Positions 11,467-48,600 of a DNA stretch of 64,000 nucleotides are shown in pieces. Both the position numbers and the translations under genes were made by a program. Origin of the DNA: Naegleria gruberi (Eukaryota); assembly GCA_000004985.1 (NCBI GenBank), contig GG738932.1; one strand, 5' to 3'. The notes under the pieces are model-generated. The model had not been told where the DNA came from and did not search any database. It saw nothing but the letters and a program-made list of their open reading frames with translations. The first letter of the stretch is position 1. Each line of letters opens with the position of its first letter.

Positions 11467-12862
11467 TTAACATTCCCAATCAAATGTTAAATCCGAATAT
11501 TCACATCTTGCTCTTGTCATTGCTTTCAAATTAGCTAACATCCATTCAATTCTCTTTCCAGTCAATCGAATGCCATGATAATAAGTATTTGAAGAGAATG
11601 AACAAACTCCAATTTTCCATCTCAAATATTCTTCATTCTCTGGTGTTGAAAAACTTGTAAGGTTATAAATGTTTTTTCCTTTTAAGTCATCTTCAACACC
11701 AAGCATTTCATTAGAACCATTGGATCCAGAACAATAGAATGAGCCAGTTGATGATTCAAATAAGGTGTGATGCCATCCACACCAAATATCAACAATTGGT
11801 TGAGGTGTTTCAATTAATACAGGAAATCCAAAATCACTTGTCACTTCTCCTTGTGAAAGTTGTCCATATGAATTGAATCCAAAGCCATAAACCTTTCTAC
11901 TTTCTGATTTTCATTATTTTGTATTTTCAAAAGAAGCGAAATAACTTACTAGTCAAAACAATGGTGTGAAGAGCTCCAAGAGCAAGCTTAATCACATGTT
12001 CTCCTAAATCATTCATTGGTTGGTGTCGAACGAATCGAGGATTATCTCCACTACTATTTCCCAATCCTTGTTGAGAATAAACTCCCCATCCTTGATTTCA
12101 AATACATGAATATTCATGTCAATTATTCAATAAAATTTGCAATTACAAACCTGTTGTGAGTAGTTTTCCATTAGCAGTAACTACCAAAGTTCTATAATAA
12201 GCAGGATACACATCAAGAATATGATCATCCTCATCCAGAACATACTCAAATTTAATTTTTCCTCCACCACACCCACCCAAACATCCATACGCATCAGATC
12301 CTGTTCCATAAACCTCATGATTATTAGTAATTGCCATCATGTGAGATAATCCAGTTCCAACATACTCAAAATGCAATGCTTCTTCCTGTCCAAACTTTTC
12401 CTCCTTCCACACATCATTAATTGAAAACAATCTTCCACTCTCCATCACAGCATATAACACTGAATTGGTAGCACACAATTGTTTGAAAGGACTTTTATCC
12501 ATCTCTCTCAATTTCTCAGTATTCAATTCATGTAATTTGTCTGGATCCTCACCATCATCATAATTTGGATTTCCAATTACAAAAGATCCTCTTCCGAGCA
12601 GCAATACCTTACCACTCTTCATCAGGAAGATTACGATCGAATCACTATTAGTAACACTCAATACAATATCATCATGATCGGGAAAAAGTATGGTAGGGAC
12701 AGCATGGGAGCCTGATCTATAGACGATCGATTCGTTGATGGAGTTACAGTTGGGAGTGTAGAGTTCGGGTCTGTAGAGACGATAAAAGTTTAATTCATAC
12801 GATGCCATTTTTTTTTTACTGTCGTGGAGTTCATTGCTTTCAATATCAAAAAAGAACATCAT
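11467..12862 (-). CDS. RCC1-repeat (RLD-like) protein, 3 exons
   Basis: Exons are 12862..12151, 12089..11949 and 11902..11467. Intron 1 is 12090..12150 (GTTTGT...CAAG) and intron 2 is 11903..11948 (GTAAGT...CAG). RCC1-like repeats occur in all exons (VYGTGSDAYGCLG; GWGVYSQQGLGNSSGD; KVYGFGFNSYGQLSQGE; WCGWHHTLF; FYCSGSNGSNEMLG). Confidence 0.6.
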
Positions 12863-13039: not shown

Positions 13040-13154
13040 ATAATTTTGATTTTTATCACAAGTTAAATTTATTTAAGCAAAATTGCAAAACTTCACAAAC
13101 TTCTTGATTTCAAATCATTCTCTCAAAATTTTCAAAAATTCTTTTCTTTTCCAT

Positions 13155-14084
13155 TTAAAAATAAGAATCAACCTTCTTACATTCGTATTTGGCACAGACC
13201 TTCTTATTTTCATATTCACAACAAACCTTCTTTCCACCAACTAACTTGTGCTTCTTACAGACCTTCTTTCCCTTTGACTTTTTAATGCATTTCTTGTAAT
13301 TCTTCTTGTGGATACATTTGGAAGGAACAGTTTCATGTTTACAACAAACCTTCTTGGTGTTGTACTTGACACATTTGGAATGAGTCTTGTGTTTCTTACA
13401 GAATTGGACGTTCTTGTATTGGGCACAGAAATGTTTTGTCTTGTGTTCACAACATTTCTTGAAATTCTTCTTTTCCTTACAATATTTGACATTCTTGAAT
13501 TTGCAACATTTCTTGGCATATGACACAACACGACATTTCTTGACACTGCTGCATTTTGGAGGAGCATATGAATCAGTAGTGTACTTGTCACAAACCTTGT
13601 GAGTTTCACACTTCTTGATTGGAACCTTTTCGTATTTTTCACAAACTTTCTTTGTGGCATGTTTTACACATTTAGTTTCGTTTGTGTATTTGGAACAATA
13701 CTTCTTACTTCCCTTCTTGGCACAGACCTTCTTATTTCCATAGGAATCACAAGTTTTCCATGTCTTATGCTTGGCACAGGTTGTCTTTTTAGTTTCGTAT
13801 TTGACACATCTCTTGGTTGGCTTACTATACTTGTCGCATTTAGAATAATTCTTGTATTTGAGACATTTTCCAGCACCAACAACAGCATACTTATCGCAAA
13901 CCTTCTTTTGACCTTCGAGTTTGTGTTTCAAACATTTACCTTTAACTGTCTTGTAAGAAACACATTTCTTCTCACAAGGAGGTTTGTAAGTATCAGGTTT
14001 TGGTTGATAGGAATCAGTTGCTTGAACTGCCAAAATGGAAAGTAAGAGCACAAGGCCGATTACAATGATTTGCTTGGTTTGCAT
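13155..14084 (-). CDS. secreted lysine/cysteine-rich tandem-repeat protein (309 aa)
   Basis: Signal peptide MQTKQIIVIGLVLLLSILAVQA. The body has about 20 degenerate 11-13 aa repeats of form K-x-C-x-K-Y-x-x-K-K-V-C, about 25% Lys and about 14% Cys. The overlapping ORFs on both strands (13241..13660, 13599..14045 and others) are low-complexity artefacts. Confidence 0.6.
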   Translation of the reverse strand: MQTKQIIVIGLVLLLSILAVQATDSYQPKPDTYKPPCEKKCVSYKTVKGKCLKHKLEGQKKVCDKYAVVGAGKCLKYKNYSKCDKYSKPTKRCVKYETKKTTCAKHKTWKTCDSYGNKKVCAKKGSKKYCSKYTNETKCVKHATKKVCEKYEKVPIKKCETHKVCDKYTTDSYAPPKCSSVKKCRVVSYAKKCCKFKNVKYCKEKKNFKKCCEHKTKHFCAQYKNVQFCKKHKTHSKCVKYNTKKVCCKHETVPSKCIHKKNYKKCIKKSKGKKVCKKHKLVGGKKVCCEYENKKVCAKYECKKVDSYF

Positions 14085-14527
14085 TTTTTTCTTGTTGAAT
14101 AAAGATTGAGATAATGTTTCGAATATTTATGTGAAATGCAAAGACTACATTTAAAGGAAAATTGAAATTTATGGTAAATGAAAGAACTCGAGAAATTGTA
14201 TAAATAGGGAGGATTGCTTTGGTGTGATTCCATTTCAATATATTTCTTGAAATATTGATTTTCTAAATTTAGTTAGATTGGTGATCAAAGTTTGAGCTTT
14301 GGATTTCTTGCTCTTTATCTAGAAATTGATCATCATTGATTATTTACTGTACTTTATCCAATTCTTGATTGGATTATTAAGAAACTTGAGTATTTTTGTC
14401 AATTTATCCCATAAGAATCTATGTTGTCCATTCTATTCAACATTCGAATCAATTTAGAACAGAATGGATTCAACTTGTCTTTTCTTCAATAAACTCAAAC
14501 AATGTGAAGAAACTAAAATTTATTCAA

Positions 14528-17783: not shown

Positions 17784-18749
17784 ATGTTTTCCACCACATC
17801 AAACAACAATAACAATTTAAATAGTAATACGTATATTCAAAAGACTAATTTAATTAGTAGAGAAGAATTGGATTATATTCAATCTCATCAAATACACTTT
17901 CCTTCCATTAATAACAACAATTCAACAACTACAACCGATGAACAAGAACAACATGAAGAATGGCTGAATGAAATTGTTCAAACTCTCACTTTCCACTACA
18001 CTGAATTGATCAGCAAACAAATGATGAGCCTCTTCTACCCTAGATATCAACACTTTTTGCAATGTCTCTTCATACCAGGAATTGGCACACGATTTGAGCA
18101 ATTCTACAACTTTTTGGAGTGTTGTTCTTTTGAAGAGAAGGAAGCTTGGACTCATCAAGAAGCCTTTGAGGCCTTTGCTAATCATTTGGGAAGAGTGAGA
18201 ACCTACAGAGCTTTGGCGTTGAAGGAGAGTGAATATCAAAAGATAATCTCTGATGATTCTATTCATCCAACAGGAAGATTGAAGATATCAAAGGAGATTG
18301 TTGAAGGAATGGTTGATTTGCATGGTGTTTGGAAGATTTGTCATGCCAGATTGTATATTGGACAAAGAATGGTCAAGTATGATCCTTCTCTTTCTCTACA
18401 CGATCATCCAGAGACAACTACCTGCATTGCTTCACATTATATGGATTTACCAGAGAGGAAGATTTATTTGATGGAATTGGATTTACCACTCATTGAAGTG
18501 TTGGGTTATAAAGTGAGAGATGTTGCCTATGATAGGAATAGAAGATGGTTTTATTATGGAAAGATTTGGTTTGACAGCTTTGATGAAACTACTGAACGAT
18601 ATACCTTGTTCGAAATTCCACTCCTTTCAAAGAGGATGACTTCATTGAGGATTTTTGATAATCAGCAAGATATTGAAAACTTTTTGCGACCATTCAGAGA
18701 AAGTCAACAACTCTTAAAGAATCAATGTGATGATCAATCGGAAGAATAA
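17784..18749 (+). CDS. hypothetical protein with N-rich N-terminus (321 aa)
   Basis: Intact ORF. N-terminal poly-N/T tract, then a globular-looking region with no recognised motif. Confidence 0.45.
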   Translation: MFSTTSNNNNNLNSNTYIQKTNLISREELDYIQSHQIHFPSINNNNSTTTTDEQEQHEEWLNEIVQTLTFHYTELISKQMMSLFYPRYQHFLQCLFIPGIGTRFEQFYNFLECCSFEEKEAWTHQEAFEAFANHLGRVRTYRALALKESEYQKIISDDSIHPTGRLKISKEIVEGMVDLHGVWKICHARLYIGQRMVKYDPSLSLHDHPETTTCIASHYMDLPERKIYLMELDLPLIEVLGYKVRDVAYDRNRRWFYYGKIWFDSFDETTERYTLFEIPLLSKRMTSLRIFDNQQDIENFLRPFRESQQLLKNQCDDQSEE

Positions 18750-21324: not shown

Positions 21325-23366
21325 TTACTTTTTGTTTGCTTCCTCATCTGCCTTTGCTTCTTCCTTTGGTTTGTTGATTGCCTTGTTCAAAATCAATGAG
21401 AGGAAAAACATGACTGCACTAATTACAGTAATAACATAAAATACCATACGATGGTCGATTGGAAATTTGGACACTGCAACAGAGCCAGCGAATATGGATC
21501 CCCCAATTATTGGACTCACCATTCTCGAAAGTGCAACAAATGATTGAGCAGTACCATTCAATTTACCATAATTCTTCCTTGAAACACTGTTATTTGTAAT
21601 GAGGAAAGTACCCAAGAAGCTATAACCATTAGAAACTTGTCTTACTAGGAGAATAAGACCAAGAACACTCCAAAACAACACATGTTTCCACATTGGATCA
21701 TCTTCAGTAGCCACTAACCAAATAATTTCTGGGAAGATGACATTGAAAATAGTATCTACCAAAATACTCCAACGATAACAGGTTAATGGACTGAATTTGG
21801 CAATAACAACAGGTGTAATGAATAATTGATTCACAAAAATGATAAATCCTAAAAATCCTCCCATTACTTTGTGTTTCAAATTCCAAATTTACAAATATTT
21901 GTAGAGAATAACAAGTGAATATTTAACAATATTATAAAAAGAAAACTTACAACCAAGATGATAAGAGGACATTCCCAATCCTCCCTTATCTTTAGGAAGG
22001 ACAGCAAAGAGAGGTAAACATTCATCAAACATGATTTGTTTCGATCCCAATAATAAATAGAGTAAGCATGTTGTTAATGGAACAGGAGAGGCCACCATTT
22101 CATGCTTTCTAAAACTATCGAACTTATTCTTGAGTTTTTGCAATAGGGTTTCCTTAATAACAATTGGTTCTTGATCCTGTTCTTCGAGGTCGTCGGTTGG
22201 AGTTGACAATAAATTTGTTTTGGAAATGGTACTTCCCTTACTCTTGTGTTTATCAGCAATCTCTTCTGATTCCTTGGCAATAAATTTTCTATAATACCAA
22301 CTGTTCTTATTGGCCTCTTCCAGTTTCAAATAGCCCAATACGAAACCAACTAAGGAAAAGCTAGAAATGAAAAAACTTGGTAAAATGTAAGGGAATTGAA
22401 TAACAAAGTTTTGTATCCACTCTGGGAAGAGCATGACAAAACTTGGATATTGTTGATAAGGTCTCGAAAATACACCACCAAGCAATGGTCCTAACACAGA
22501 TGATAGACCAAATGTAATACTAGTCAATGAGAATGCTCTTGCCTGATTGGTACTATCAGTAATTTCTCCTAAATAACTTTTAACAACTCCCAAATTACTG
22601 TATTGTTTCCAATAAATTCCATTGTTTCCATTAAAGATTGTTCATTCAATGTTGTTCAATGTTTCCATTGGTTTTAAAGAAGTTCATTCAATATTAGAAT
22701 GTAAATAACTCAAACATACCCATTCAATAAACCAAACATGAATCTACAAATACATGCCCACCATAACCATCTCGAAAATCCAAACATTAATCCACAAAGG
22801 CCACCAAAAAACGTTCCAAACAGTAAAACAGGCCTTCTTCCAATACTATCCGAAATAGTTCCCCAAAAGAAGGAACTAATAAATTGAGAAAGAAAGTATG
22901 CAGCAGCAACCAATCCAACATAATAACCATACTCTGTTGGATTATCAGTCAAGTTAAAATCAGCAATCATGAATGTAATATAGGGCATTAGGGATGTGAA
23001 AGTCAAACTATCACACAAATACAGGAAAAAGACGACAAATAATTTACCCCAGGGCAATGGAGTAACTTTTTGTGGTTGTTGTTTTTTCTTTTCTGTTTCT
23101 TCTTCTTTTTCTTCTTCTTCTTCGGAAGCTTTTTGTTTTACTTCATCTTCATCCAATTCTTCCAAGGCTCTACTGCTCATCAGATGATGACTAATTGCTA
23201 TAGAATTTTCCTCTCCATCTGATCCTTCATCTTGTACAAGCCTTTTTAAATTCTTTTTCAATTCATATGTTTTTGTTTCCTCTGCTTCTTCTTCTCGCTC
23301 ATCATCACGATCAGAATTAATTGATGAATTAATTGATACCGATTCACTATTCTTCCTCTTTACCAT
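21325..23366 (-). CDS. MFS transporter (ZIF-like/MFSD-like), 3 exons
   Basis: Exons are 23366..22730, 22597..21950 and 21866..21325. Intron 1 is 22598..22729 (GTATGT...ACAG) and intron 2 is 21867..21949 (GTAAGT...AAAG). MFS signature GTISDSIGRRPVLLFG. 12 predicted TM segments across the exons. Acidic Glu/Lys-rich N-terminal tail. Confidence 0.7.
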
Positions 23367-27666: not shown

Positions 27667-29244
27667 CTAGTTCTTTCGTTTCTTCAACGCTGGTTCCAGA
27701 GTTGTATCCTTACTCTTGTATTCATTGATTTGTTTCGTGTAGGAATCTGAAAGAATCTTCTTCTCTACTAGATATTGAATAAACTCAATTTGATCCTCTG
27801 AGTAATTACTGAGAGTCCAGGAATTCATATTCACAAAGTTGTTTCTAACTGATTGAGCAAAGTTAGCACTATTCTTTTCAAAATATTTCTTCAAGCTATC
27901 AGTGAGAACGTTCATTCTTTTAGAAATTTCTAAAATTGCAAAAATGACTCCAATTCTTGAGAATTCGTAATATTTGTCATCAGGTTCTTCAAAATATTCC
28001 ATGTCAACATTCAATCCTTTAAATCTCAAAAATTTGATAAGCTCATCATCTTCATAGTAGTGGAGTATAATAACTACCAAATATTGAATATGATCTGATT
28101 TCGAACAATTCCAAAAATTAAATCCCATATAGAAAATGTCCATAATTTCAGCTGTTGTTTTCTTGTTCTCCAATTTACCATTGGTGAGATCGAATCCCAA
28201 AATTGGAGTAAGTGAAAATGAGCTGTCCACCATTCTAAATAATTTTAAATCTTTTGCCGAATCTCTCCAATGAATCCTTCTCAAGATTGTACTGGCGAAT
28301 ATACTGGTTTTTTCTGCTTGAAAGCAAATTAAAATTACATGTTCTGGAATCAATGATAAAGTTTCATTAATTTTTTCAGGTGGCGGATAATGGAAATAGG
28401 CAGTTTGCTCTCCATCATTAATTGAAGTACCACTAGATAACAATTCAGGTGTCAAATTAATATATTTTTCAATAAATTGTTTTTCCTCTTCTGTCTTGTA
28501 TCTTTCCAAATTGACTGAAACAAATGTCTCAAAATTCTCAACTACTAAAAATCTCATACTATCATAAAATTTACACTTCTTTGCATTGAGTGGTTGAGAA
28601 AGAAAGGCAACAGGTAAATAGCAACTAGATGGAAAATATTTCAATTTACATCTCTTGAATACTAATGTATCAATAGCTTTGAATTTCTTTGTAATCCACT
28701 CCATGACCCCTTCCTCAAATTCACATGAAAGGAAGGATAATTTCTCAATAACTTCAAAAACACTTCGATGCTTGAATGACAATTCCTCATCGTCATCATT
28801 TTCCACCTTCTTCTTTTTCGTTGGTTTCTTCACATCACAAAACATGGCCGAAATAAAGTCAACTGACAATTTCACATCAGAGAAATAAATACTACTCGCA
28901 TTCACAAACAATCCACACAGCAAATTCCTCAATTGTTTTGTAATCAATGCTTTTGAAGCTCTTTCCATCGCCATGCCAGTCCAATATCTTTCCAAATTTT
29001 CTTCTCTATCTTTTCCAGCACTTTCAATCATGACTTGTAAATTCCTGGTAACGTGCAAACTCTTCTGCAATGCACAATATTGTTTCACTCCTCGGAAAAA
29101 CATTTGATTGACTAATTGTAATGGAATATATTCTTCCAAGTGTAAAAAACTACAAAATACTTGAATACAATCACCTAATATTATTCCATCAAAGATTGCA
29201 AAATTTCCAAAACATAAAAATTGCCTACCTGGTAATTGATTCAT
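27667..29244 (-). CDS. hypothetical protein (525 aa), C-terminal KKRKN basic tail
   Basis: Long uninterrupted ORF with coding-like composition. No recognised domain. Confidence 0.5.
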   Translation of the reverse strand: MNQLPGRQFLCFGNFAIFDGIILGDCIQVFCSFLHLEEYIPLQLVNQMFFRGVKQYCALQKSLHVTRNLQVMIESAGKDREENLERYWTGMAMERASKALITKQLRNLLCGLFVNASSIYFSDVKLSVDFISAMFCDVKKPTKKKKVENDDDEELSFKHRSVFEVIEKLSFLSCEFEEGVMEWITKKFKAIDTLVFKRCKLKYFPSSCYLPVAFLSQPLNAKKCKFYDSMRFLVVENFETFVSVNLERYKTEEEKQFIEKYINLTPELLSSGTSINDGEQTAYFHYPPPEKINETLSLIPEHVILICFQAEKTSIFASTILRRIHWRDSAKDLKLFRMVDSSFSLTPILGFDLTNGKLENKKTTAEIMDIFYMGFNFWNCSKSDHIQYLVVIILHYYEDDELIKFLRFKGLNVDMEYFEEPDDKYYEFSRIGVIFAILEISKRMNVLTDSLKKYFEKNSANFAQSVRNNFVNMNSWTLSNYSEDQIEFIQYLVEKKILSDSYTKQINEYKSKDTTLEPALKKRKN

Positions 29245-29296: not shown

Positions 29297-31528
29297 TTAC
29301 AAAATTGAAATATCCTCAAAGGAGCTTTCAGTCTTAACTTCATTTTGAGGGGAGATGACTACTGCAGATTCGTTTCTGATCAAGTCAATTTCACTCTTTC
29401 CAAACATCATTTGCTTTTCAGCTAATTTTCTATAGACACCATCTTCCTTCTTGATTAATTCGTGGTGAGTTCCTGATTCTTTCAATTCTCCCTTAACGAG
29501 TACATAAATGGTATCACAGTTTTGAATAGTACTCAATCTGTGAGCAATACAGATGGAGGTTCTTCCCTTCATGAGATTGTCAAGAGCTGCTTGAACGAGA
29601 CCTTCACTTTCAGTGTCGAGGGCTGAGGTGGCTTCGTCCAAAAGGAGGACTTGTGGATCTTGGAGAATGGCTCTTGCAATGGCAACACGTTGTTTTTGAC
29701 CACCTGATAAGGAAACACCCTTTTCACCCAGTTTAGTTTCATAACCATCTGGTAACTCCATAATAAAGGTATGACAATTGGCAGCTTTGGCAGCGTGTTC
29801 AATTTGTTCTTGAGAGACATTTTCAGCACCAACAGCATAGGCAATATTTTCTCTAATTGAAGTGGCAAACAATACAGGTTCTATAATTTTCAAATTAATT
29901 ATTAGAAATGAAACATTTTTAAACATACCTTGAGTGACAATACCAATATTTCTATGGAGCCATTGAGGATCAATTTCCTTAATATTATATCCATCAATTA
30001 TAATTTCACCTTCTTGTGGATCATAGAAACGTTCCAATAGACCAACAATGGTTGACTTTCCTGATCCTGATGGACCAACCAAAGCAACAGAAGTTCCTGG
30101 CTTGATATCAATTGAGAAATCAGACAAGACAACTGCATTTGGACGGGATGGGTAAATAAACTTGACATTCTTAACTTGAATGGAACCTTTCAACTTTTCT
30201 TCTGGAGCTTTTCCTCCTGCAAATGGAATTGCTGGACTTCTCTTTAAAACTTTGAGAATGGTTCTTTGAGACATTTGAGCTTTGGAAAATTCTGGAATTT
30301 GAGTACCAGCTTGAGAAAGACCAATAACACCAAATAGCATCATACCGAAAACTTTCATCATTTGACCAACTGTTATGGTATTTTCTGCAACCAAGCCACC
30401 TCCATACTATATTATCATTCCACAATAATTATTCCATTACATGACGATTGTAAAATATTTAAAACGATATGATGAATTAATACTACTTACCCAGAAGGCT
30501 AAGGCAATAGTTCCCCAGAGAATGAATGATACTGAGGCAAAAGTAGTTCCTTGCAAGATGGCTTTGAACAAGCCATAAGTACTAATATTCTTTAAATCTT
30601 TGGCAAATCTATCTTGTTCCTTTTGTTCACAACCCATTGATTTAACAGTTCTAAAACTTGAAACAACTTCAGTTGCAATCGATGCAGAATGTTCCGTAGC
30701 TCCATTTGTCTTTTTAGTTAAATATTCAACAACCTTAGACAAGACACCAACACCAAACACCAACAATGGAGAGGTTGAAATCATGCCAAGGGACATTTGC
30801 CAAGATGAAACAAAGGCAAGGACAATACCAATAATGAATTGGGCAGTGTTTTGTAAAAGGAGAGCCAATTTGTTAGAGTAGACTTCTTGAATTTTGGACA
30901 CGTCTTCACTCAATGCAACTGTCAATGCACCAGTCTTCTTAATATCAAAGAAACCCATCTCTTGAGTTGTCAATGCATTGAAATAGGCCTTTCTCAAAGC
31001 AACACCAATTCTTTCACTTGCCAAATTTAAAAAGAATTGAGAGAGCAAACTGGCCACAGCAGATCCTGCAGCAATAATTGCAAACTTGATAGCAATATCT
31101 GAAACACTTGCTTTCATAGAGTCAACAGTTGGAACGACACCATTCTTTGGCTGGAAAACATCCACCAAATCACCCATGACAAATTGAAAACACAATGGAA
31201 TGACACCATTACCCAAACTACCAATTGCTCCAATCACTACCAGCAACCAATTCCATCCAAAAATCTTGAAAATGATCATGTTATCCTTTCCAGTAATATT
31301 CGGCTCTTGTTCATCTTTGATTTCATCAACATTTGATTTCTCATCAGCCTTCTTCTTTTTGAATCGTTTGAAGGGATTTCTACTTGGTCGGGTTGCTGTT
31401 TCTTGAGGAGATTTTGTGTTCTGTTCATCAACAACTAGATGTGTTGTAGAGGTGGAATTTACTTGCTCCTTATCGAGAGAAGTAGCAGCATTAGAAGCTC
31501 CTCCCTTAGTATCTTCCTTTTTAGTCAT
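29297..31528 (-). CDS. ABC transporter, ABCB-type half transporter (TMD-NBD), 3 exons
   Basis: Exons are 31528..30491, 30384..29919 and 29870..29297. Intron 1 is 30385..30490 (GTAAGT...TTGCAG). Intron 2 is 29871..29918 (GTATGT...TTATAG) and lies in frame inside an ORF. Six-TM region. Walker A GPSGSGKST, Q-loop IGIVTQ/EPVLFATSIRENI split by intron 2, ABC signature LSGGQKQRVAIARAIL, Walker B LLLDEATSALD and H-loop IAHRLSTI. Confidence 0.8.
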
Positions 31529-33334: not shown

Positions 33335-34816
33335 TCATTTGAACAATTCCTTTATTGAAGGAATGATTGTTCTTGGTAATGAATGAGATGCAAGAGAATT
33401 ATTTTTCTTATCTAAATTCTGAACTGGTGTTGGTGTTGGAATTATGGGATGTTTAGATTGAGTCATCAATTCAGAAGATTCAATTGAATTACTATTATTA
33501 TTGGGATATGATACAAGATCTGTTGTTTGGTTGTTATTGACAGTTCCAGTTGTTGAGTCTTGTTTTGCAATTTGCTTTTCAGAAAAAAGCAGATCCGTGG
33601 CTGATGTGAAACTGACCGATCTTGAAATCGTACCATAATTCAGGTTTGCTAAATCTCGTTTTGGTTGACTACCAAAAGAAGGTCCAATAATGGGTTGTAA
33701 AGTTGTGTGACTTGGATCTGCAATTACATGATTCGAAGATGAGAAGTATTGCTGTTGTATACTCTCCTTTGGATTAGTTGTTGATTGGTTTACATTGTGT
33801 GAATTGTGTGAAAGAATGTTGTTAAATCCAATATTGGAAGCAACGGGATAGTTGTTCGACACTATTGGATTTGGAAATGTGCCTTGTTGGGAAATATTAG
33901 CACCAGTGCTAGAGGAATTGGAAGATGGATTATGAATGGGTGATGGAGTGGTGAGAGTTTGCGTTTCAGTTTGTGAATTGCTGCTTGATGCTTGTGGAGT
34001 TTTAAATTGATCACCACCATTATTCGTACTATTCGATGATGATGCTGAACCAGGATTGAAATTGAGCACTGTTTCGTAAGCTTGTTGAGTAGGTTTCTTC
34101 TTGAAAACTCCAAACATTGCATTATTATCAGTCATTGAGAGTAGATCAAAACTCGAAACCTGAACTTGTTTTCCACTCTTTCGTTTTTTAGAATTTTTCT
34201 CCACATGTATTTCCTCATTATCCTGATATTGATCCACAGAAGAAGATGATTGATTATTTGTAATTTTGAAATGATTGCATCCCTCGAAAACTTCCTTCTT
34301 CTTTCTCTTTCTCTTTTCCTTATTAATAACTGCTGTATGAAAAGTTAACGTATTTCCATTATCAACCATTGGAAGAATAGCATGTTGTTGTTGCTGCTGC
34401 TGCTGTTGAAAATGATTGTCAACCAGCACTGTGGTTGTTACTCTCGATTGATTTTTGCTAACCTGTTGTTCATAATTAATGAAATGATGATTCGAATAAT
34501 TTCTAACTTGTTGCTGATCATTCACCACCACAACACTCGCACTATTTATATTACTACTTCCTATTCTCATTTCATTATTCATCGCCACTATCATCCCATT
34601 ATTGTCATCATTCTGAGTCAAGTTCATTTGAGCGGCAACCTCCTTTTTCTTCTTTCTCAAATTCGCTTGTTGATTATTTTGATGCGTTCCTTGATATTGT
34701 TGTTGATGATGCTGATGATGAGAATTGGAATGACCAACATGTTGATTATTTTGATGGCCATCACGTATAGCCTTTGTTTGTTGGTGTAGTAAAGGTGGCG
34801 GGAGTTTTTCTGACAT
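33335..34816 (-). CDS. SMFGV/SISIRELLN-family protein, member G (longest, Q/N/S-rich), tandem to F
   Basis: FDLLSMTDNNAMFGVFKKKPTQQAYETVLNFN and C-terminal TIIPSIKELFK. Poly-Q and His/Gln-rich N-terminus. Confidence 0.5.
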   Translation of the reverse strand: MSEKLPPPLLHQQTKAIRDGHQNNQHVGHSNSHHQHHQQQYQGTHQNNQQANLRKKKKEVAAQMNLTQNDDNNGMIVAMNNEMRIGSSNINSASVVVVNDQQQVRNYSNHHFINYEQQVSKNQSRVTTTVLVDNHFQQQQQQQQHAILPMVDNGNTLTFHTAVINKEKRKRKKKEVFEGCNHFKITNNQSSSSVDQYQDNEEIHVEKNSKKRKSGKQVQVSSFDLLSMTDNNAMFGVFKKKPTQQAYETVLNFNPGSASSSNSTNNGGDQFKTPQASSSNSQTETQTLTTPSPIHNPSSNSSSTGANISQQGTFPNPIVSNNYPVASNIGFNNILSHNSHNVNQSTTNPKESIQQQYFSSSNHVIADPSHTTLQPIIGPSFGSQPKRDLANLNYGTISRSVSFTSATDLLFSEKQIAKQDSTTGTVNNNQTTDLVSYPNNNSNSIESSELMTQSKHPIIPTPTPVQNLDKKNNSLASHSLPRTIIPSIKELFK

Positions 34817-36299: not shown

Positions 36300-38450
36300 A
36301 TGATTAGTCAAGTTTCGGCTGTTACGTCTGTACCATTCGAACAGAAGAGTAAAATACCAACACCTAAATACAATTATGTTAATATCATTCTAGACGAAAC
36401 AATTCAATCAGATTTATTAATCAAAAAGTTAAAATACCAAACCACAGAATTACAGCTCTTTCTAATACATTATCCTATTCTCGATTGGTTTCCTCTACAA
36501 ATGATAGGAACAAACACCAAACCTGGCCTTGATCGTTCCCAATTCACAGCCATTATCAAACATAGAATTGAACAGAACCACCAACTTATATCCAACATTA
36601 TTGGTTTGTGTGATTGTGACGACAAGTACAATTCATTCACTTCCATCCTGAAAATGCCAGATTTTAATGTGGATTGTAATTTGGAAGAGTTTGAAGAGCA
36701 AGCTAGAAAGCAACGTGTTAAAATGTTCTTGGCAGGGTTGTTGGAAGATAGGGATATTGCTTGGATAGCACTTGGTAGTAATTTTAAGTTTAGGCATATT
36801 TCGGATAGATTTAAGGAAGATTATCAAGTTGTTTTACAAGCTGTAAAATATGATACTAAAGCTTTTGAATTGGTTTCTGATAGATTTAAAGATGATGAGA
36901 GAATAGTTTTCGAAGCTGTTAGAAACTGTGGCAGCAATCTCAAATTTGCATCTGAAAGATTGAAAGACAATAACCAGATTATTCTAAAAGCCATCAAGAA
37001 GAATACATCAGCAATTATGTATGCCTCAAAGAGATTCAAAGATTACTTTGGCGAATTACTTTCTGATAGTGAGCTACTCCAATTAGAAAGATTTGAAAAA
37101 GATTCGTCTGATTTATTCTTCAACGAAGGGTTTGACAATGAACTGCTCATGTTAGAATTTGTCAAGTTAAATACAAGGTCTCTCAGAAAGGCATCCGATC
37201 GATTGAGGGATAATCAAACAATTGTGTTGGAAGCTATCAGGAGAAATGCCATGTCGTTGTGTTATGCATCTGACAGATTGAGAGATACTGAGATGGTTGT
37301 GATGGAAGCAGTTACACAAGAACCTCAAATGATGAAGTATGCTTCCAATAGATTGAAAGATAATAAGCAGTTTGTGTTGAAGATCATGAAATCATTGGGA
37401 TACTCGTATGATCTTTCTTTGGTTCAGTATTTATCGAAACTATTGCAAGATGATGAGCAAATTATTATAGAAGAAATCAAGAGAGACCAATCACCACTCT
37501 TTTTTGCATCTGAAAGGTTGCAAGACAATGAAGAAATTGTAATGAAAGCAGTCAACCAAAATGGAATGTCACTTTATTGTGCTTCCGAGAGATTGAAGGA
37601 TAATGAAAAGATTGTTTTGGAAGCGGTTCGAAATACTAGTGAAGCCCTTACTTATGCATCCAATAGATTGAAAGATAGTGAACTAGTTCTGATGGCAGCC
37701 ATTTGTCATGGTCGTTTGTGCAAGGCTCTTTCGTATGCTTCTGAAAGATTGCAAGATAACGAATTGATTGTTTTGGAATCTGTCAAGAAGAATGGGTCTA
37801 TGCTTGGATATGCATCTGATCGATTGAAATATCATGAACAAATTGTTTTGGAAGCAATTAAACAGGAACGATCATCAATAGAAAATATCACTTCTGCAAG
37901 ATTGAAAGATACTGAAACGATTATATTGGAATTGGTTAAGGATTCTACCATGAAACATGTACATAATCTGGAAATTGATGAATATGAGTTTCATTCCTCA
38001 GGCAGTGAAGTACGTTCTGATTTATTTAATGAATATTGTTCTGAAAGATTGAAAAACGATTCACAATTCATGTTAAAAGTATTGGCAAGCAAGTGGAGAG
38101 GTGGAATCGCACATGGACTTTCAGATAACAAGCAATTTATGCTTGAGGCAATTAAGCTCAATTGTTGGGCAATTGATTCAGCTTCCGAACAATTAAGAGA
38201 CGATGAAGAGGTTGTAAAGGCAGCTATTTCTCAAAATGGTAAAACTCTTCAATATGTTTCTGATAGATTGAAGAATGACATAACTATAGTCTCAAGTGCA
38301 GTGAAATCCTCAGTTGCCTCCTTAAAGTACATTGGTGAAAAGTTCAGAAATGTTGAATTTATTTGTTATTGCTTGGAGAATCAATTGATTTCTTCCAAAC
38401 CTTCAAATGTTGTTAAGGAAATACCATTCTTTGGAAATTTACATTTCTAA
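36300..38450 (+). CDS. DUF4116-like tandem-repeat protein (716 aa)
   Basis: About 14 copies of a 34-37 aa repeat ASxRLKDNxxIVLEAVKxNGxxLxYAS (ASERLKDNNQIILKAIKKNTSAIMYAS; ASDRLRDNQTIVLEAIRRNAMSLCYAS; ASERLQDNEEIVMKAVNQNGMSLYCAS and others). I recall this pattern as Pfam DUF4116 but cannot verify it here. Confidence 0.6.
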   Translation: MISQVSAVTSVPFEQKSKIPTPKYNYVNIILDETIQSDLLIKKLKYQTTELQLFLIHYPILDWFPLQMIGTNTKPGLDRSQFTAIIKHRIEQNHQLISNIIGLCDCDDKYNSFTSILKMPDFNVDCNLEEFEEQARKQRVKMFLAGLLEDRDIAWIALGSNFKFRHISDRFKEDYQVVLQAVKYDTKAFELVSDRFKDDERIVFEAVRNCGSNLKFASERLKDNNQIILKAIKKNTSAIMYASKRFKDYFGELLSDSELLQLERFEKDSSDLFFNEGFDNELLMLEFVKLNTRSLRKASDRLRDNQTIVLEAIRRNAMSLCYASDRLRDTEMVVMEAVTQEPQMMKYASNRLKDNKQFVLKIMKSLGYSYDLSLVQYLSKLLQDDEQIIIEEIKRDQSPLFFASERLQDNEEIVMKAVNQNGMSLYCASERLKDNEKIVLEAVRNTSEALTYASNRLKDSELVLMAAICHGRLCKALSYASERLQDNELIVLESVKKNGSMLGYASDRLKYHEQIVLEAIKQERSSIENITSARLKDTETIILELVKDSTMKHVHNLEIDEYEFHSSGSEVRSDLFNEYCSERLKNDSQFMLKVLASKWRGGIAHGLSDNKQFMLEAIKLNCWAIDSASEQLRDDEEVVKAAISQNGKTLQYVSDRLKNDITIVSSAVKSSVASLKYIGEKFRNVEFICYCLENQLISSKPSNVVKEIPFFGNLHF

Positions 38451-45638: not shown

Positions 45639-48600
45639 ATGAAACAACAGCTACACGTTAATGGCCGCTTGCTGATTATTTCAGTTGTGCTGGCATTATT
45701 TCTAGTAATGACAGGTTGTGTTGCAGATATTGTGCAAGTGACACCTCAGAATCCACTGCTTGATATGATTAGTTGGAATGATAAGGATGAAATATGGTTT
45801 GCCCAATCGTGTCCTCTCACTGGATCCAACAGTCGGTAAGTTTCGAATATATTTTCTTTCCTGACTAATGGAAATAGTCTTGGAATTGAAATGAGAAATG
45901 GCATCCTTGCTGCATTCCATGAAATCAACTCTATTGGGGGTGTTTGGGGCTCAAAGAAACTCAAATTGCTCTCACTCGATGATAATTATGATCCAGTGAG
46001 CACTTTACAAAATACAAATTACTTTCTTTACAATATTACTCCACCAAATACTTCACTGAATTATGCAAATGTGTTTTCAAGTGGTAAATATGAAGATAGA
46101 AATGTCAATGATGTGAAAGTTTTTGGATTGTTAGGATATGTCGGCACGCCAACTGTCCAAGCAGTTTATTCTGATGTTGTGGCAAAGAATGTACCACTTG
46201 TAGCTTCTTTTACAGGAGTTGGTTGGTTGAGATATTCTCCATTCTATTCAAATGTCATTAATCTTAGAGCTTCCTATGATGATGAGACAGCTGCCATGAT
46301 TGACTATCTCATTAACGAAAAACTAATTAGAAGAATCTCTGTATTCTACCAAAATGACAGTTTTGGACTTGCTGGATTGAGCGGAGTCCAACGTTCCCTA
46401 GTCAACTATCTCAATATCCCTATTCGTTCCACATCTTACTATACAAGAGGAACACTAAATGTGGAAAATGCATTTCAGGAAATTGGAGCGGGAAAACCAG
46501 CTGCAATTATTTGCATTGGAACTTTTGCTCCCATTGCCAAGTTTATCAAGATGGTAAAAGATTTGGCCTTCAATTCAACTGCCAATCAATACGGTTATGA
46601 GAAACCGAGCGAAATTATTTTCATGACTTTGAGTTTCGTCAGCTCAGGAGCTCTCATTGAAAGATTAAACTCCTTCAGTTTACCTTCGAATAACTATGGC
46701 AATTCGTATTACATTGACAATGTAGTCATCACACAAGTCGTCCCCAGCCCTTTCAATCTCTCAATTCCAATAGTGAGATCCTATCAGAATGCAAGAAGAT
46801 CCTATCTACTAGCCAACGATCCATCCTCTTACAATTCCTTCACTCCCTCCTTTATAGAATTGGAAGGATACATGGCGGGAAGATTGGTTTTTTCGATATT
46901 TCAGAAAATGGTTGGAAATTTAACGAGATCCAACTTTATTGCAACGAATTATTTTGGAGGGAATAGGTTGGGAACTGATATTGGGGATTCGTCATCGACT
47001 GGTGACAGTTCAGGAGGTGTTTCACTTGTGGATGGGATTAGGGTAGGTCCGTATCGTTGGTGTGAAAGTGTCAATGTCATGGATTTGAATTTACCATATG
47101 CGGATAAGATTTCATTGAATGTTTCGGCACTTTCGAATACTACTTGTTCTAATTTTAATTGTAATCAAGGTTTGAAAGTTGTTTACAAAAGTTCAGCTCA
47201 AATTGAAAACTCTAAAATTTCATTTTCTATTTTAGGGAATAGTTTTTCATGGTATGATTACAAGGGAGGTATTTATTGCATTTCAGATCCTTCACTTGTT
47301 AAGAAACCTCTCATTTTCGGTCAATCAATCTATTCGAATAAGGACTATACTGAAGAACTAATGCTGAGAAAAGGAATTTTAATGGCCTTTACCATATATA
47401 ACCAAGGATTGTCAAGTTCTGATTCCAAATTAGAACTTTTAACACAATATCACTCAAATAAGGATGAATTAATTTCGAATACAAAGGAATTCATTGAAAC
47501 TCATGATGCACTTGCTCTGGTTGGCTATTCGACAGATCACTTTTCGTTGGTAGAAAGTAGTGGAAAGATCAATATTGCAACTAATCCACAATTTGCAAAC
47601 ATTTCCTTGATTGGAGGTGCTTCAACTATTAATTCAATGAAATTAAGAAATCCATTCACAAGGAATATCATTCACGCACATTCGTCCATTTTCGAACAAT
47701 TGGCAACGATTGTGGAATATTCAATGAATCAAGAAGCATCTTCAAGGTTTTCAATTATTTACAGTAAGAGAAATGAAGATTCATTTGCAGCTTTTGGATT
47801 ACTCAATCAAATATTGACTGCTTTGGGTTTAGTTTTAGATTCTTCTGCATGTATTGATGGTTCGAATAGTTATTCATATGCCAGTATAGATTCAATTGTT
47901 GATAGTTTGAGATATAATGGTTCTAATCCTCAAGTTGTTATATTTGCATTCCCATCAAATGTCGATGTAGTTTCGTCCTTGATTGGAGCTTTCCAAACTA
48001 CTTATCAGAATTCACCAAAATTTGGTCGAAACTTGGATATTGTTTTGATGAATTCCTTCTTTTCCCTTAATGCAGAATACGAAATGAAAGATTGGCTCGC
48101 TCAAAATTACAAGAGTTTCTTCAAAGTTTCGTTTGTTTCTCATTTAGATTCGGTTTATTCATCCTCACAACTTTCCATCGTCAAATTCATTCAAACCATG
48201 AAGAATTTCTTCCCAAACGATTATTCCAACTCAACTACCCTCTATCACAACAAAGTTTTGGAAGGATTTTATATTGGAAACTTGATTACCTCTATTCTAA
48301 TCAATATTGATTCAGGTTTGACTTCAAAGGAAGTATTGCAAACTATTTATGATGTCAAGAGTTTCATTTCTCAGCAAACGACATATGGTCCCTTCAGTGA
48401 AGATGGTTGCAATGTTGGTATTCGTCAAAATTATGTTTTCACATTCGTTTCGAATAGTTTCTCCAAAGTTTATACGAAAAGTTATGATTCAGGTTGTGGA
48501 TTATTGGCAAGCTCTGTTGAGACAGCCATCAAATCATACATTAACACGCCATTACTATTTGGATATCTAGCTCCCTATAGAAAAATTGGAAATTCTCAAA

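What the first reader, a model, noticed from the sequence alone, without database searches (positions are those of the whole stretch)
13155..14084. Extremely Lys/Cys-rich secreted tandem-repeat protein
After a clean signal peptide, the 309-aa protein is about 25% Lys and about 14% Cys. It is built from about 20 degenerate 11-13 residue units (for example CLKHKLEGQKKVCDKY; CVKYETKKTTCAKHKTWKTCDSY; CEKYEKVPIKKCETHKVCDKY). The composition is reminiscent of cationic antimicrobial or metal-binding proteins or of wall/matrix-binding proteins. The repeat regularity suggests recent internal expansion. I recognise no homolog.
Basis: seen in the sequence. Interest (0 to 1): 0.5.

Follow-up and report, generated by a model that had tools for sequence, protein, structure and literature searches.

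The report
Secreted disulfide-ladder rod protein of Naegleria
This is a real, conserved gene of a Naegleria-type amoeba for a secreted, extremely lysine-rich protein that most likely folds back on itself into one long two-stranded ribbon stapled by about 15 evenly spaced disulfide bonds, a design with no solved counterpart and an untested, probably structural (cyst-wall or matrix) role.

Summary
Lys is 28%, Cys 11% (34 Cys), and the repeat period is 9 residues, not 11-13. It is not a DNA satellite or a recent expansion. DNA repeats are weak, dN/dS against an orthologue is about 0.12, and unit number and lengths are fixed across paralogues only 27-40% identical. Homologues exist but only in vahlkampfiid amoebae (Naegleria gruberi, N. 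fowleri, N. lovaniensis, Willaertia) and environmental relatives: 25 hits among 1.84 billion representatives, all "hypothetical", with no Pfam or PDB relatives.

My best reading is a cationic (+67) cystine-ladder rod of about 40 nm with Tyr-bearing D-x-Y-x-P modules at both ends, serving as an extracellular cross-linked structural protein, most likely in the cyst wall. The architecture is fairly well supported. The function is inferred only, with no expression or localisation data.

The parts
13155..14084 (-). Complete single-exon CDS (309 codons plus TAA stop) of the Lys/Cys-rich secreted protein
   Evidence: ORF list. It aligns end to end with homologues. dN/dS is about 0.12 against orthologue L005.
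14019..14084 (-). Signal peptide, residues 1-22 (MQTKQIIVIGLVLLLSILAVQA)
   Evidence: Hydrophobic core plus an A-x-A cleavage motif, read from the sequence. Every full-length family member has an equivalent N-terminus. AF2 models it as a helix, residues 4-17.
13977..14018 (-). N-terminal tail, residues 23-36 (TDSYQPKPDTYKPP), carrying two D-[ST]-Y-x-P modules
   Evidence: The region has low pLDDT and lies outside the ladder. The same module sits at the N-terminus of paralogues.
13590..13976 (-). N-arm of the ladder, residues 37-165, with 15 Cys (37, 41, 51, 63, 74, 83, 93, 103, 112, 121, 130, 139, 148, 159, 165)
   Evidence: Mirror pairing with the C-arm. 14 of these 15 Cys lie in columns that are 100% Cys across the family. 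AF2 gives strands 39-165 with pLDDT around 90.
13554..13589 (-). Tip loop, residues 166-177 (DKYTTDSYAPPK), the predicted hairpin turn carrying a D-S-Y-A-P-P module
   Evidence: It is the only non-strand segment between the two 76-residue strands in the AF2 model. It is the centre of the Cys mirror symmetry. At DNA level the TDSY codons repeat those of the N-terminal tail (family D17: 13566-13577 and 14007-14018).
13179..13553 (-). C-arm of the ladder, residues 178-302, with 19 Cys: 15 mirror partners plus 4 extra Cys (194, 212, 248, 289, the second Cys of each CC doublet)
   Evidence: The extra Cys are poorly conserved (7-27% of sequences). The most regular 27-nt units found by TRF lie here (13439-13515).
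13158..13178 (-). C-terminal tail, residues 303-309 (KKVDSYF), with one D-S-Y module. Paralogues carry 2-4 tandem copies of (K)VDTYKPP or IDSYKP here.

Best explanation
The gene encodes a member of an uncharacterised protein family restricted to vahlkampfiid amoebae (Naegleria, Willaertia).

Shown: it is secreted (signal peptide, no membrane anchor) and under purifying selection. Its Cys skeleton is nearly invariant while its Lys content is not.

Strongly inferred: the mature chain folds back at the DKYTTDSYAPPK loop, so that residues 37-165 run antiparallel to residues 178-302. The two arms are stapled by about 15 cross-arm disulfides, one every roughly 9 residues (37-302, 41-297, ... 159-184, 165-178). 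This gives a two-stranded 'cystine-ladder' ribbon of about 130 residues per arm (about 40 nm if extended) with net charge about +67.

Inferred: the non-ladder segments all lie at the two ends of the rod (the N- and C-terminal tails at one end, the tip loop at the other) and carry D-x-Y-x-P modules. These resemble the di-tyrosine cross-linking site of resilin (SDSYGAP) and the Tyr-Lys-Pro motifs of plant wall proteins. The four unpaired Cys offer further intermolecular links.

The most likely role is an extracellular structural building block. The rod would bind anionic wall or matrix polymers through its lysines and would be covalently cross-linked end to end or into a mesh through Tyr and Cys, most plausibly in the cyst wall, the only known walled stage of these amoebae.
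For: Gene reality and selection: the ORF and its composition. There are 25 homologues among 1.84e9 representatives, and the named ones are all Naegleria or Willaertia. 26 of 34 Cys lie in columns that are at least 93% Cys, against 46% conservation for Lys. dN 0.31 against dS 2.6 versus L005, and 68 of 180 identical residues use different codons. mRNA-sized single-gene contigs exist for orthologues.

Ladder: 15 of 15 N-arm Cys pair with C-arm Cys at i+j = 338-343. The mirrored gap lists correlate at r = 0.94 (permutation p about 1e-4), and the direct order fits worse (sum of absolute differences 18 against 6). The same 14-15-rung mirror appears in paralogues and new environmental sequences, mostly with 0 of 300 shuffles reaching it. 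Rung 159/184 has Cys at both positions in 7 sequences, at neither in 5, and at only one in none. All five indels of 2 or more residues are matched in both arms at the same rung interval. AF2 with 20 sequences gives pLDDT 79.6, with unbroken strands 90-165 and 178-253 and strand breaks mirrored at 58-59|283-284, 70-73|270-272 and 87-89|254-256. The only weak Foldseek neighbours are long beta-hairpin pore stems.

End modules: all 8 Asp of the protein sit in D-x-Y. The modules occur at termini, tip and matched internal bulges across the family, in 1-4 tandem copies.

Precedents: resilin Tyr cross-links (PMC4455251), Tyr-cross-linked Eimeria oocyst and sporocyst walls (PMC4776368), and Thr/Lys/Cys-rich and two-copy 8-Cys cyst-wall lectins of Acanthamoeba (PMC6541295).
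Against: There is no expression, proteomic or localisation evidence for any family member. No paper mentions the locus tags and three omics supplements contained none of them.

The structure is a prediction from only 20 sequences with pTM 0.26. I could not read the coordinates, so S-S distances are unverified.

An odd (9-residue) rung spacing would alternate hydrogen-bonded and non-hydrogen-bonded cross-strand sites. From general knowledge, cross-strand disulfides strongly prefer non-hydrogen-bonded sites, so regular bulges would be needed.

Fifteen Lys-Lys cross-strand juxtapositions imply strong repulsion unless counter-ions or polyanions are bound.

The resemblance to resilin and PRP motifs is a 5-6-residue pattern and is not homology. 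Codon bias is only mildly shifted (GC3 0.41 against 0.30), so bulk expression is not demonstrated. No wall-biosynthesis genes lie nearby.
Confidence: 0.42

Rival explanations
1. A secreted cationic antimicrobial or bacteria-binding effector. In this reading the protein is a giant version of the disulfide-stapled beta-hairpin antimicrobial peptides (protegrin, tachyplesin, theta-defensin), used by a bacterivorous amoeba to agglutinate, permeabilise or capture negatively charged prey or competitors.
For: Net charge is +67 and pI 9.7. The predicted single antiparallel hairpin closed by disulfides matches the class definition in topology and charge (PMC13001179). The protein is secreted.
Against: That class is defined as short (about 16-25 aa) and amphipathic, with 1-4 disulfides. 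Here the mature chain is 287 aa with about 15 rungs and only 16% aliphatic/Phe/Trp/Met residues (13 Leu/Ile/Met/Phe/Trp in all), so there is no obvious hydrophobic face. The most distant members keep the scaffold but are much less basic (Lys 12-13%), so charge is not the conserved property. The conserved D-x-Y-x-P end modules have no role in this model. No processing sites or acidic pro-regions are evident.
Confidence: 0.2
2. The same gene and the same secretion, but a different architecture: a beads-on-a-string tandem array of small independent disulfide-closed mini-loops, or two tandemly duplicated Cys-rich domains, rather than one long N-arm/C-arm hairpin.
For: The two halves are similar in the direct orientation beyond composition and Cys spacing (Smith-Waterman z = 5.0 with Cys fixed, 0 of 500 shuffles). 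All units share one consensus. The first AF2 run with 6 sequences gave short hairpins at pLDDT 41. Because most gaps are 9, the shuffled null for mirror ladders is already high (9-11 rungs).
Against: The atypical gaps (6, 12, 4/5, 10, 11) match in mirrored order but not in direct order. The co-loss of Cys159 and Cys184 and the five arm-matched indels are not expected for independent local loops. The 20-sequence AF2 model has two unbroken 76-residue strands with mirrored breaks. Each half holds an odd number of Cys (15 and 19), so neither half can pair all its Cys on its own.
Confidence: 0.15
3. An adhesive or substrate-attachment ('glue') protein of the trophozoite or cyst, working as mussel foot proteins do, through Lys plus (modified) Tyr and Cys chemistry.
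For: The composition (Lys 28%, Tyr 7%, Cys 11%) and the Y-K-P-P motifs resemble mussel foot proteins and plant proline-rich wall proteins. This comparison is from my own knowledge and was not tested here. The protein is secreted.
Against: Mussel-type adhesives are largely disordered and Tyr/DOPA-rich. Here the conserved property is a rigid Cys scaffold. There is no evidence for tyrosine hydroxylation in these amoebae and no expression data.
Confidence: 0.1
4. A metal-binding, metallothionein-like protein.
For: It is rich in Cys and Lys and contains 11 His.
Against: The signal peptide routes it to the oxidising secretory pathway. Cys are 9 apart rather than in CxC/CxxC clusters. It has 7% Tyr plus Phe and Trp, which metallothioneins typically lack (from my own knowledge). 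There is no Pfam metallothionein hit. The Cys covary as pairs. Nothing was found in the supplements of a Naegleria copper study.
Confidence: 0.03
5. Not a functional protein: a chance ORF across a simple DNA satellite.
For: Several alternative-frame ORFs of 40-148 aa overlap it on both strands, as expected for compositionally biased DNA.
Against: TRF finds only 2.9 weak copies. Full-length homologues exist in at least four species. dN/dS is about 0.12. Cys columns are invariant. mRNA-like contigs exist.
Confidence: 0.01

Closest known systems
Beta-hairpin antimicrobial peptides and the theta-defensin 'cystine ladder' (protegrin, tachyplesin, gomesin, arenicin, RTD-1)
   Same: Cationic, with a single pair of antiparallel strands held together by cross-strand disulfides arranged as ladder rungs (class definition in PMC13001179).
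   Different: Those peptides are 16-25 residues with 1-4 disulfides and an amphipathic surface. This protein has about 130 residues per arm, about 15 rungs at a fixed 9-residue pitch and few hydrophobic residues, and it carries conserved Tyr modules at both ends. There is no sequence homology and no activity data.
[quoted passage not shown]
   Same: Signal peptide, lineage-specific Cys-rich modules, Lys-rich low-complexity composition and two-part organisation, all in walled resting stages of amoebae (PMC6541295).
   Different: No detectable homology. The exhaustive HMM search returned only Naegleria and Willaertia among named hits, and there are no CBM or lectin Pfam domains. Wall localisation and glycan binding are unproven here.
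Tyr-cross-linked structural proteins: resilin (GGRPSDSYGAPGGGN), plant proline-rich proteins and extensins (PPVYK, YK motifs), and Eimeria oocyst-wall Tyr-rich proteins
   Same: Short exposed D/S-Y-x-(A)-P or Y-K-P-P modules, repeated in variable copy number at flexible ends. In resilin that Tyr forms di- and tri-tyrosine cross-links (PMC4455251). Tyr cross-linking hardens coccidian walls (PMC4776368).
   Different: Those proteins are Gly/Pro/Tyr-rich and largely disordered. Here the modules are only small appendages on a rigid Cys scaffold. The plant motifs are recalled from my own knowledge. No cross-link chemistry has been shown in Naegleria.
Disulfide-braced repeat rods: Tenebrio antifreeze beta-helix (12-residue TCTxSxxCxxAx coils), granulin hairpin stacks, TNFR and furin-like Cys-rich repeats
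   Same: Short, regularly spaced Cys repeats give an elongated, disulfide-laddered, largely beta structure (from my own knowledge).

Membership tests
Uncharacterised vahlkampfiid 'mirror-Cys' family (N. gruberi NAEGRDRAFT_67458/76199/64508/48501/64980/66117, N. fowleri FDP41_004030, N. lovaniensis C9374_009239, W. magna ABK040_005866) | Significant full-length sequence similarity | tested here: met
   E = 1e-32 to 1e-67 with the single sequence, up to 1e-181 with the profile, and 19 of 25 hits at E <= 1e-10 in the exhaustive search.
Uncharacterised vahlkampfiid 'mirror-Cys' family | Signal peptide, 14-15 mirrored Cys pairs at about 9-residue pitch, the conserved block VGxGKC..YK..KCDKYSK, and D-x-Y-x-P modules at the termini or tip | tested here: met
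Beta-hairpin antimicrobial peptides | Short length (about 16-25 residues, 1-4 disulfides) | tested here: not met
   The mature chain is 287 aa with about 15 predicted disulfide rungs. Class definition from PMC13001179.
Beta-hairpin antimicrobial peptides | Cationic single antiparallel hairpin cyclised by disulfides | tested here: inconclusive
   Charge is +67. The hairpin topology is supported by AF2 and covariation, but it has not been determined experimentally.
Beta-hairpin antimicrobial peptides | Amphipathic surface and antimicrobial activity | not testable with these tools
   Only 16% aliphatic/Phe/Trp/Met residues, which argues against a hydrophobic face. Activity requires an assay.
Metallothioneins | Cytosolic small protein with about 30% Cys in CxC/CxxC clusters and essentially no aromatic residues | tested here: not met
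   Signal peptide, 11% Cys with modal spacing 9, 22 Tyr, 5 Phe and 1 Trp. No Pfam hit at E <= 0.1.
Known glycan-binding Cys-rich wall modules (CBM14/peritrophin, hevein, CBM1, CBM49, Dictyostelium Cys repeats) | Match to the family profile | tested here: not met
   Zero Pfam families for the target at E <= 0.1 and none meaningful for 8 family members at E <= 1. No PDB sequence match at E <= 10.
Recently expanded tandem-repeat (satellite-encoded) proteins | High DNA identity between adjacent units, and unit number varying between relatives | tested here: not met
   TRF finds 2.9 copies at 62% match. Other repeats are 60-77% identical. Segment lengths between rungs are identical across most paralogues.
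Resilin-type or extensin-type Tyr-cross-linked proteins | Exposed Tyr motif (SDSYGAP, YKPP-like) present | tested here: met
   TDSYQP, DTYKPP, TDSYAPP and VDSYF in the target, with tandem copies in paralogues. The resilin motif is from PMC4455251.
Resilin-type or extensin-type Tyr-cross-linked proteins | Gly/Pro-rich disordered repeat body, and di-tyrosine demonstrated | tested here: not met
   Gly is 3.2% and Pro 2.9%, and the body is a predicted ordered beta ladder. Di-tyrosine itself cannot be tested here.

The most novel reading that the evidence does not exclude
The family represents a previously undescribed protein architecture. A single polypeptide forms one two-stranded beta-ribbon about 40 nm long, held in register by about 15 nested disulfides at a fixed 9-residue pitch (a 'giant cystine ladder'). 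Cross-linkable Tyr modules at both ends make it a rigid polycationic strut from which heterolobosean amoebae, including the pathogen N. fowleri, build their cyst wall or extracellular matrix.
Probability: 0.3. Interest if true: 0.8.

Novelty: new variant of a known kind. Interest (0 to 1): 0.55.

Why it matters
If the mirror-ladder model is right, this is a new way of building a long, thin, chemically robust protein rod. It would be a natural extrapolation by more than tenfold of the cystine-ladder hairpins known only from small peptides, which is of interest for protein design and biomaterials.

Biologically, almost nothing is known about the proteins of the Naegleria cyst wall or matrix. A lineage-specific, secreted, highly conserved family with a member in N. 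fowleri (FDP41_004030) would give concrete candidates for wall components, for stage-specific markers, and for targets or diagnostics of the resistant stage.

The indel and Cys-pair covariation also shows that disulfide topology can be read directly from a handful of orphan sequences.

Tried and rejected
- **DNA satellite or recent expansion:** rejected.
- **Paralogues inside the window:** none. Only the gene itself and its internal self-match were found.
- **Exact look-up of the target and two neighbours in public assemblies:** not on record, so the source genome could not be named. It is a Naegleria-like vahlkampfiid distinct from N. gruberi NEG-M, N. fowleri, N. lovaniensis and W. magna, whose proteins are in the database.
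- **Synteny and gene-cluster clues:** neighbours are unrelated housekeeping or signalling genes both in the window and at three paralogous loci. The ankyrin genes next to the target and next to P0004 share only repeat-level similarity.
- **Pfam and PDB sequence searches:** nothing.
- **First AF2 run with 6 sequences:** uninformative, pLDDT 41.
- **Simple tandem duplication of two halves:** considered because of direct similarity, but it is outperformed by the mirror model.
- **Literature:** no paper mentions any locus tag or accession, and I found no Naegleria cyst-wall proteome. The supplements of N. fowleri cyst RNA-seq, Naegleria copper and N. fowleri iron studies contained none of the identifiers searched.
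- **Guilt by fusion:** the 357-aa Cys-rich 'CPxG' domain fused N-terminally to the ladder in P0019/P0035 has no Pfam family and no detectable relatives.
- **Metagenome scan with the 20-sequence alignment:** failed for lack of a conserved word. It worked with the 7-sequence alignment.
- **Codon bias as an expression proxy:** only a mild shift.
Full report
**1. The observation**

The window holds an ATG-to-TAA ORF at 13155..14084 on the minus strand encoding 309 aa. The protein starts with a textbook signal peptide (MQTKQIIVIGLVLLLSILAVQA|TDSY).

Its composition is extreme:
- Lys 28.2% (30% of the mature chain)
- Cys 11.0% (34 residues)
- Tyr 7.1%
- Arg only 0.6%
- mature pI 9.7 and net charge about +67

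Cys is 11%, not 14%. The repeat is not 11-13 residues. The modal Cys-to-Cys spacing is 9 (13 of 33 gaps, most of the rest 8-12). Cys autocorrelation at lag 9 is 16 pairs against 3.8 expected (z = 7.0, 0 of 5000 shuffles), with a harmonic at lag 18. The unit consensus is C-x-K-[Y/H]-K-[N/T]-x-K-[K/V].

A striking detail is that all eight Asp residues of the protein sit in a D-x-Y triplet.

**2. Not a satellite, not recent, and a real gene**

- Tandem Repeats Finder detects only 2.9 copies of a 27-nt unit at 62% match. Other direct DNA repeats are 60-77% identical.
- Against a full-length orthologue recovered with its DNA (L005, 326 aa, 58% identity), nucleotide identity is 66%. 68 of 180 identical residues use different codons, and dN = 0.31 against dS = 2.6 (saturated), so dN/dS is about 0.12.
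- The overlapping alternative-frame ORFs on both strands are by-products of the biased composition.
- The window has no second copy.

**3. Where it comes from and who has it**

The neighbours are eukaryotic: PIP5K, an RCC1-like protein, an ankyrin protein, intron-split MFS and ABC transporters, a receptor-type adenylate cyclase, DUF4116, purple acid phosphatase and G8/CEMIP. GC content is about 34%.

Homologues exist but are very few. There are 4 by single-sequence search, 11 by profile, and 25 among 1.84 billion cluster representatives in an exhaustive HMMER search. A few of the weakest are unrelated Cys-periodic low-complexity proteins.

All named members are 'predicted' or 'hypothetical' proteins:
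- N. gruberi NAEGRDRAFT_64508, 48501, 64980, 66117 and 67458, plus the C-terminal part of the chimeric model 76199
- N. fowleri FDP41_004030
- N. lovaniensis C9374_009239
- Willaertia magna ABK040_005866

The window's own proteins are not in the collections, and the closest relatives are 57-65% identical. The source is therefore another Naegleria-like vahlkampfiid.

There is no Pfam family, no PDB sequence relative even at E = 10, and no paper mentioning any of the identifiers.

**4. What is conserved**

- In a 20-sequence alignment (A3), 26 of the target's 34 Cys lie in columns that are at least 93% Cys. Lys is conserved at only 46% (56% as Lys or Arg).
- Lys content ranges from 12% to 28% across the family, and the target is the extreme.
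- The scaffold is therefore the selected feature. Extreme basicity is a trait of this subfamily.
- All full-length members have a signal peptide and a pI of 9.2-10.3.
- A specific block (VGxGKC..YK..KCDKYSK) is invariant in a 7-sequence alignment. This is a defined architecture, not a fluid repeat array.

**5. The organising principle: a mirror-image cystine ladder**

*Structure prediction.* With six sequences AlphaFold2 was uninformative (pLDDT 41). With 20 sequences it reached mean pLDDT 79.6, with 138 residues at 90 or above. That model shows two unbroken 76-residue strands (90-165 and 178-253) on either side of the loop DKYTTDSYAPPK. The strand breaks are mirrored about it (58-59|283-284, 70-73|270-272, 87-89|254-256).

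*Mirror symmetry in the target.* This prompted a test on sequence alone. The 15 N-half Cys pair one to one with 15 C-half Cys at i+j = 338-343, from 165-178 outward to 37-302. The mirrored gap lists are 6,11,9,9,9,9,9,10,10,9,11,12,10,4 and 6,9,9,9,9,9,9,9,10,9,10,12,9,5. They correlate at r = 0.94 (permutation p about 1e-4). The direct order fits much worse (sum of absolute differences 18 against 6).

*Mirror symmetry in relatives.* The same 14-15-rung mirror is found in divergent paralogues and in four additional environmental sequences, mostly with 0 of 300 gap-order shuffles reaching it.

*Covariation*:
- The one variable rung (159/184) has Cys at both positions in 7 sequences, at neither in 5, and at only one in none.
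- All five indels of 2 or more residues are matched in both arms at the same rung interval:
  - N. gruberi 67458: 11/10→9/9 and 12/12→9/9
  - N. lovaniensis 9239 and N. gruberi 66117: 9/9→15/21 and 17/21
  - JGI333: 13/13 and 11/11
- Unmatched changes never exceed one residue.

*Cys parity.* Each half has an odd number of Cys (15 and 19), so neither half can be self-contained.

I conclude, with about 0.75 confidence, that the mature chain is one giant hairpin whose arms (129 and 125 residues, about 40 nm if extended) are stapled by about 15 nested disulfides.

*Caveats:*
- I could not inspect the coordinates.
- pTM is 0.26.
- An odd 9-residue pitch would alternate hydrogen-bonded and non-hydrogen-bonded cross-strand sites, which (from general knowledge) disfavours regular cross-strand disulfides unless bulges occur.
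- The antiparallel layout juxtaposes 15 Lys-Lys pairs.

**6. The ends of the rod**

Everything outside the ladder carries D-x-Y-x-P modules:
- the N-terminal tail (TDSYQPKPDTYKPP)
- the tip loop (TTDSYAPPK)
- the C-terminal tail (KKVDSYF)

Paralogues have the same module at the same places, in 1-4 tandem copies: KVDTYKPP x3-4 in P0008, IDSYKP x3 in N. fowleri, and others in P0023, P0027 and P0028. The arm-matched insertions in 66117 and 9239 are themselves such modules (PDPYA opposite DSYVPKPDTYNP). This is the only part of the family that expands and contracts.

The motif resembles the resilin repeat GGRPSDSYGAPGGGN, whose Tyr forms di- and tri-tyrosine cross-links (PMC4455251). From my own knowledge it also resembles the PPVYK and YK motifs of plant wall proteins and mussel adhesives.

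Four further Cys (194, 212, 248, 289, the second Cys of each CC doublet) have no ladder partner. They are too far apart along one strand to pair with each other and are poorly conserved. They are candidates for intermolecular disulfides.

**7. Function (inferred)**

The features that suggest a cross-linked extracellular structural element are:
- secretion
- a rigid, protease-tolerant, disulfide-braced rod
- polycationic sides
- cross-linkable ends
- restriction to cyst-forming amoebae

The cyst wall is the obvious destination.

Precedents by analogy only:
- Coccidian oocyst and sporocyst walls are hardened by cross-linked Tyr-rich proteins (PMC4776368).

There is no direct evidence. I found no expression or proteomic record, and neither the neighbours nor the fusion partner are informative.

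Four mRNA-sized, single-gene contigs from one JGI sample include the orthologue L005. L006-L008 read through the point where genomic copies of close relatives run into an intron (P0006, P0012, P0018). This suggests they are spliced transcripts. However, intron positions vary between paralogues (L002 has a 75-nt GT-AG intron at a different position), so the inference is only suggestive.

The main rival is a bacteria-binding or antimicrobial effector, a scaled-up beta-hairpin AMP. It is weakened by the lack of hydrophobic residues (16%), by the fact that basicity is not conserved, and by the unexplained end modules.

**8. Verdict**

The gene belongs to an undescribed, lineage-restricted family. 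Its most interesting property is a predicted giant cystine-ladder hairpin, supported by Cys-pair and indel covariation. This lies outside anything in the PDB but conceptually extends known disulfide-stapled hairpins. I rate the architecture well supported (about 0.75), the structural or cyst-wall role plausible (about 0.4), and overall interest moderate to high (0.55).

Noticed in passing
N. gruberi protein P0003 (XP_002668872, NAEGRDRAFT_76199), residues about 305-443: This public gene model is chimeric. An N-terminal SAM/PB1-domain protein is fused to the C-terminal half of the closest N. gruberi relative of the target (65% identity). This is probably a mis-annotation that hides the true orthologue.
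   Followed up: partly
window 12143-12862 (-), and W. magna protein P0024 (ABK040_005866): An RCC1-like ORF lies directly downstream of the target. The Willaertia gene model fuses an RCC1-like N-terminus to a C-terminal fragment of this family. This could be a conserved adjacency or a mis-modelled fusion. The order differs between the two, and I did not resolve it.
   Followed up: no
P0019/P0035 (environmental, L004 3836-5977), residues 1-378: In one environmental lineage the ladder domain is preceded by about 370 aa of a different Cys-rich repeat (C-P-x-G...C...C, about 45-aa period). From memory it recalls coccidian oocyst-wall protein repeats. It has no Pfam family and no detectable homologues.
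   Followed up: partly
P0013 (SRC soil catalogue, 125 aa): This is a short variant that jumps from one 'KKVCDKY' to the next and so lacks most of the N-arm, which would destroy the ladder register. It is more likely a protein-level assembly artefact across a repeated word than a natural isoform.
   Followed up: no
L002 10001-11207, with the same gene in L003: A paralogue is split by a canonical 75-nt GT-AG intron (AAG|GTAAGT...CAG). The automated gene call missed it and reported a wrong-frame 281-aa ORF for exon 2. Splicing restores a full-length family member. Intron positions differ between paralogues.
   Followed up: yes
window 13083-14238, both strands: About fifteen alternative-frame ORFs of 40-148 aa overlap the gene (for example + 13599-14045 and - 13241-13660). 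They are side-effects of the AAG/TGT/TAC-rich codon repeats and have no support.
   Followed up: partly
window 21325-23366 (-) and 29297-31528 (-): An MFS transporter is spread over three ORFs and an ABC transporter (membrane plus ATPase parts) over two. This indicates short spliceosomal introns, in keeping with a Naegleria-type genome.
   Followed up: no
window 45891-51332 (+) and 36300-38450 (+): One is a 1813-aa receptor-type adenylate/guanylate cyclase with two periplasmic-binding-protein-like sensor domains. The other is a 716-aa protein made of nine DUF4116 repeats. Several other large ORFs have no Pfam match at all (17784-18749, 27667-29244, 33335-34816, 59202-61715).
   Followed up: no
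window residues 51-63 against 276-288, and 83-93 against 247-257 of the target protein: Ladder partner segments resemble each other in the forward direction (LKHKLEGQKKV and KKHKLVGGKKV; DKYSKPTKR and CKHETVPSK). The Gly-rich and Pro-containing irregularities would therefore face each other with local two-fold pseudo-symmetry. The structural meaning is unexplained.
   Followed up: partly
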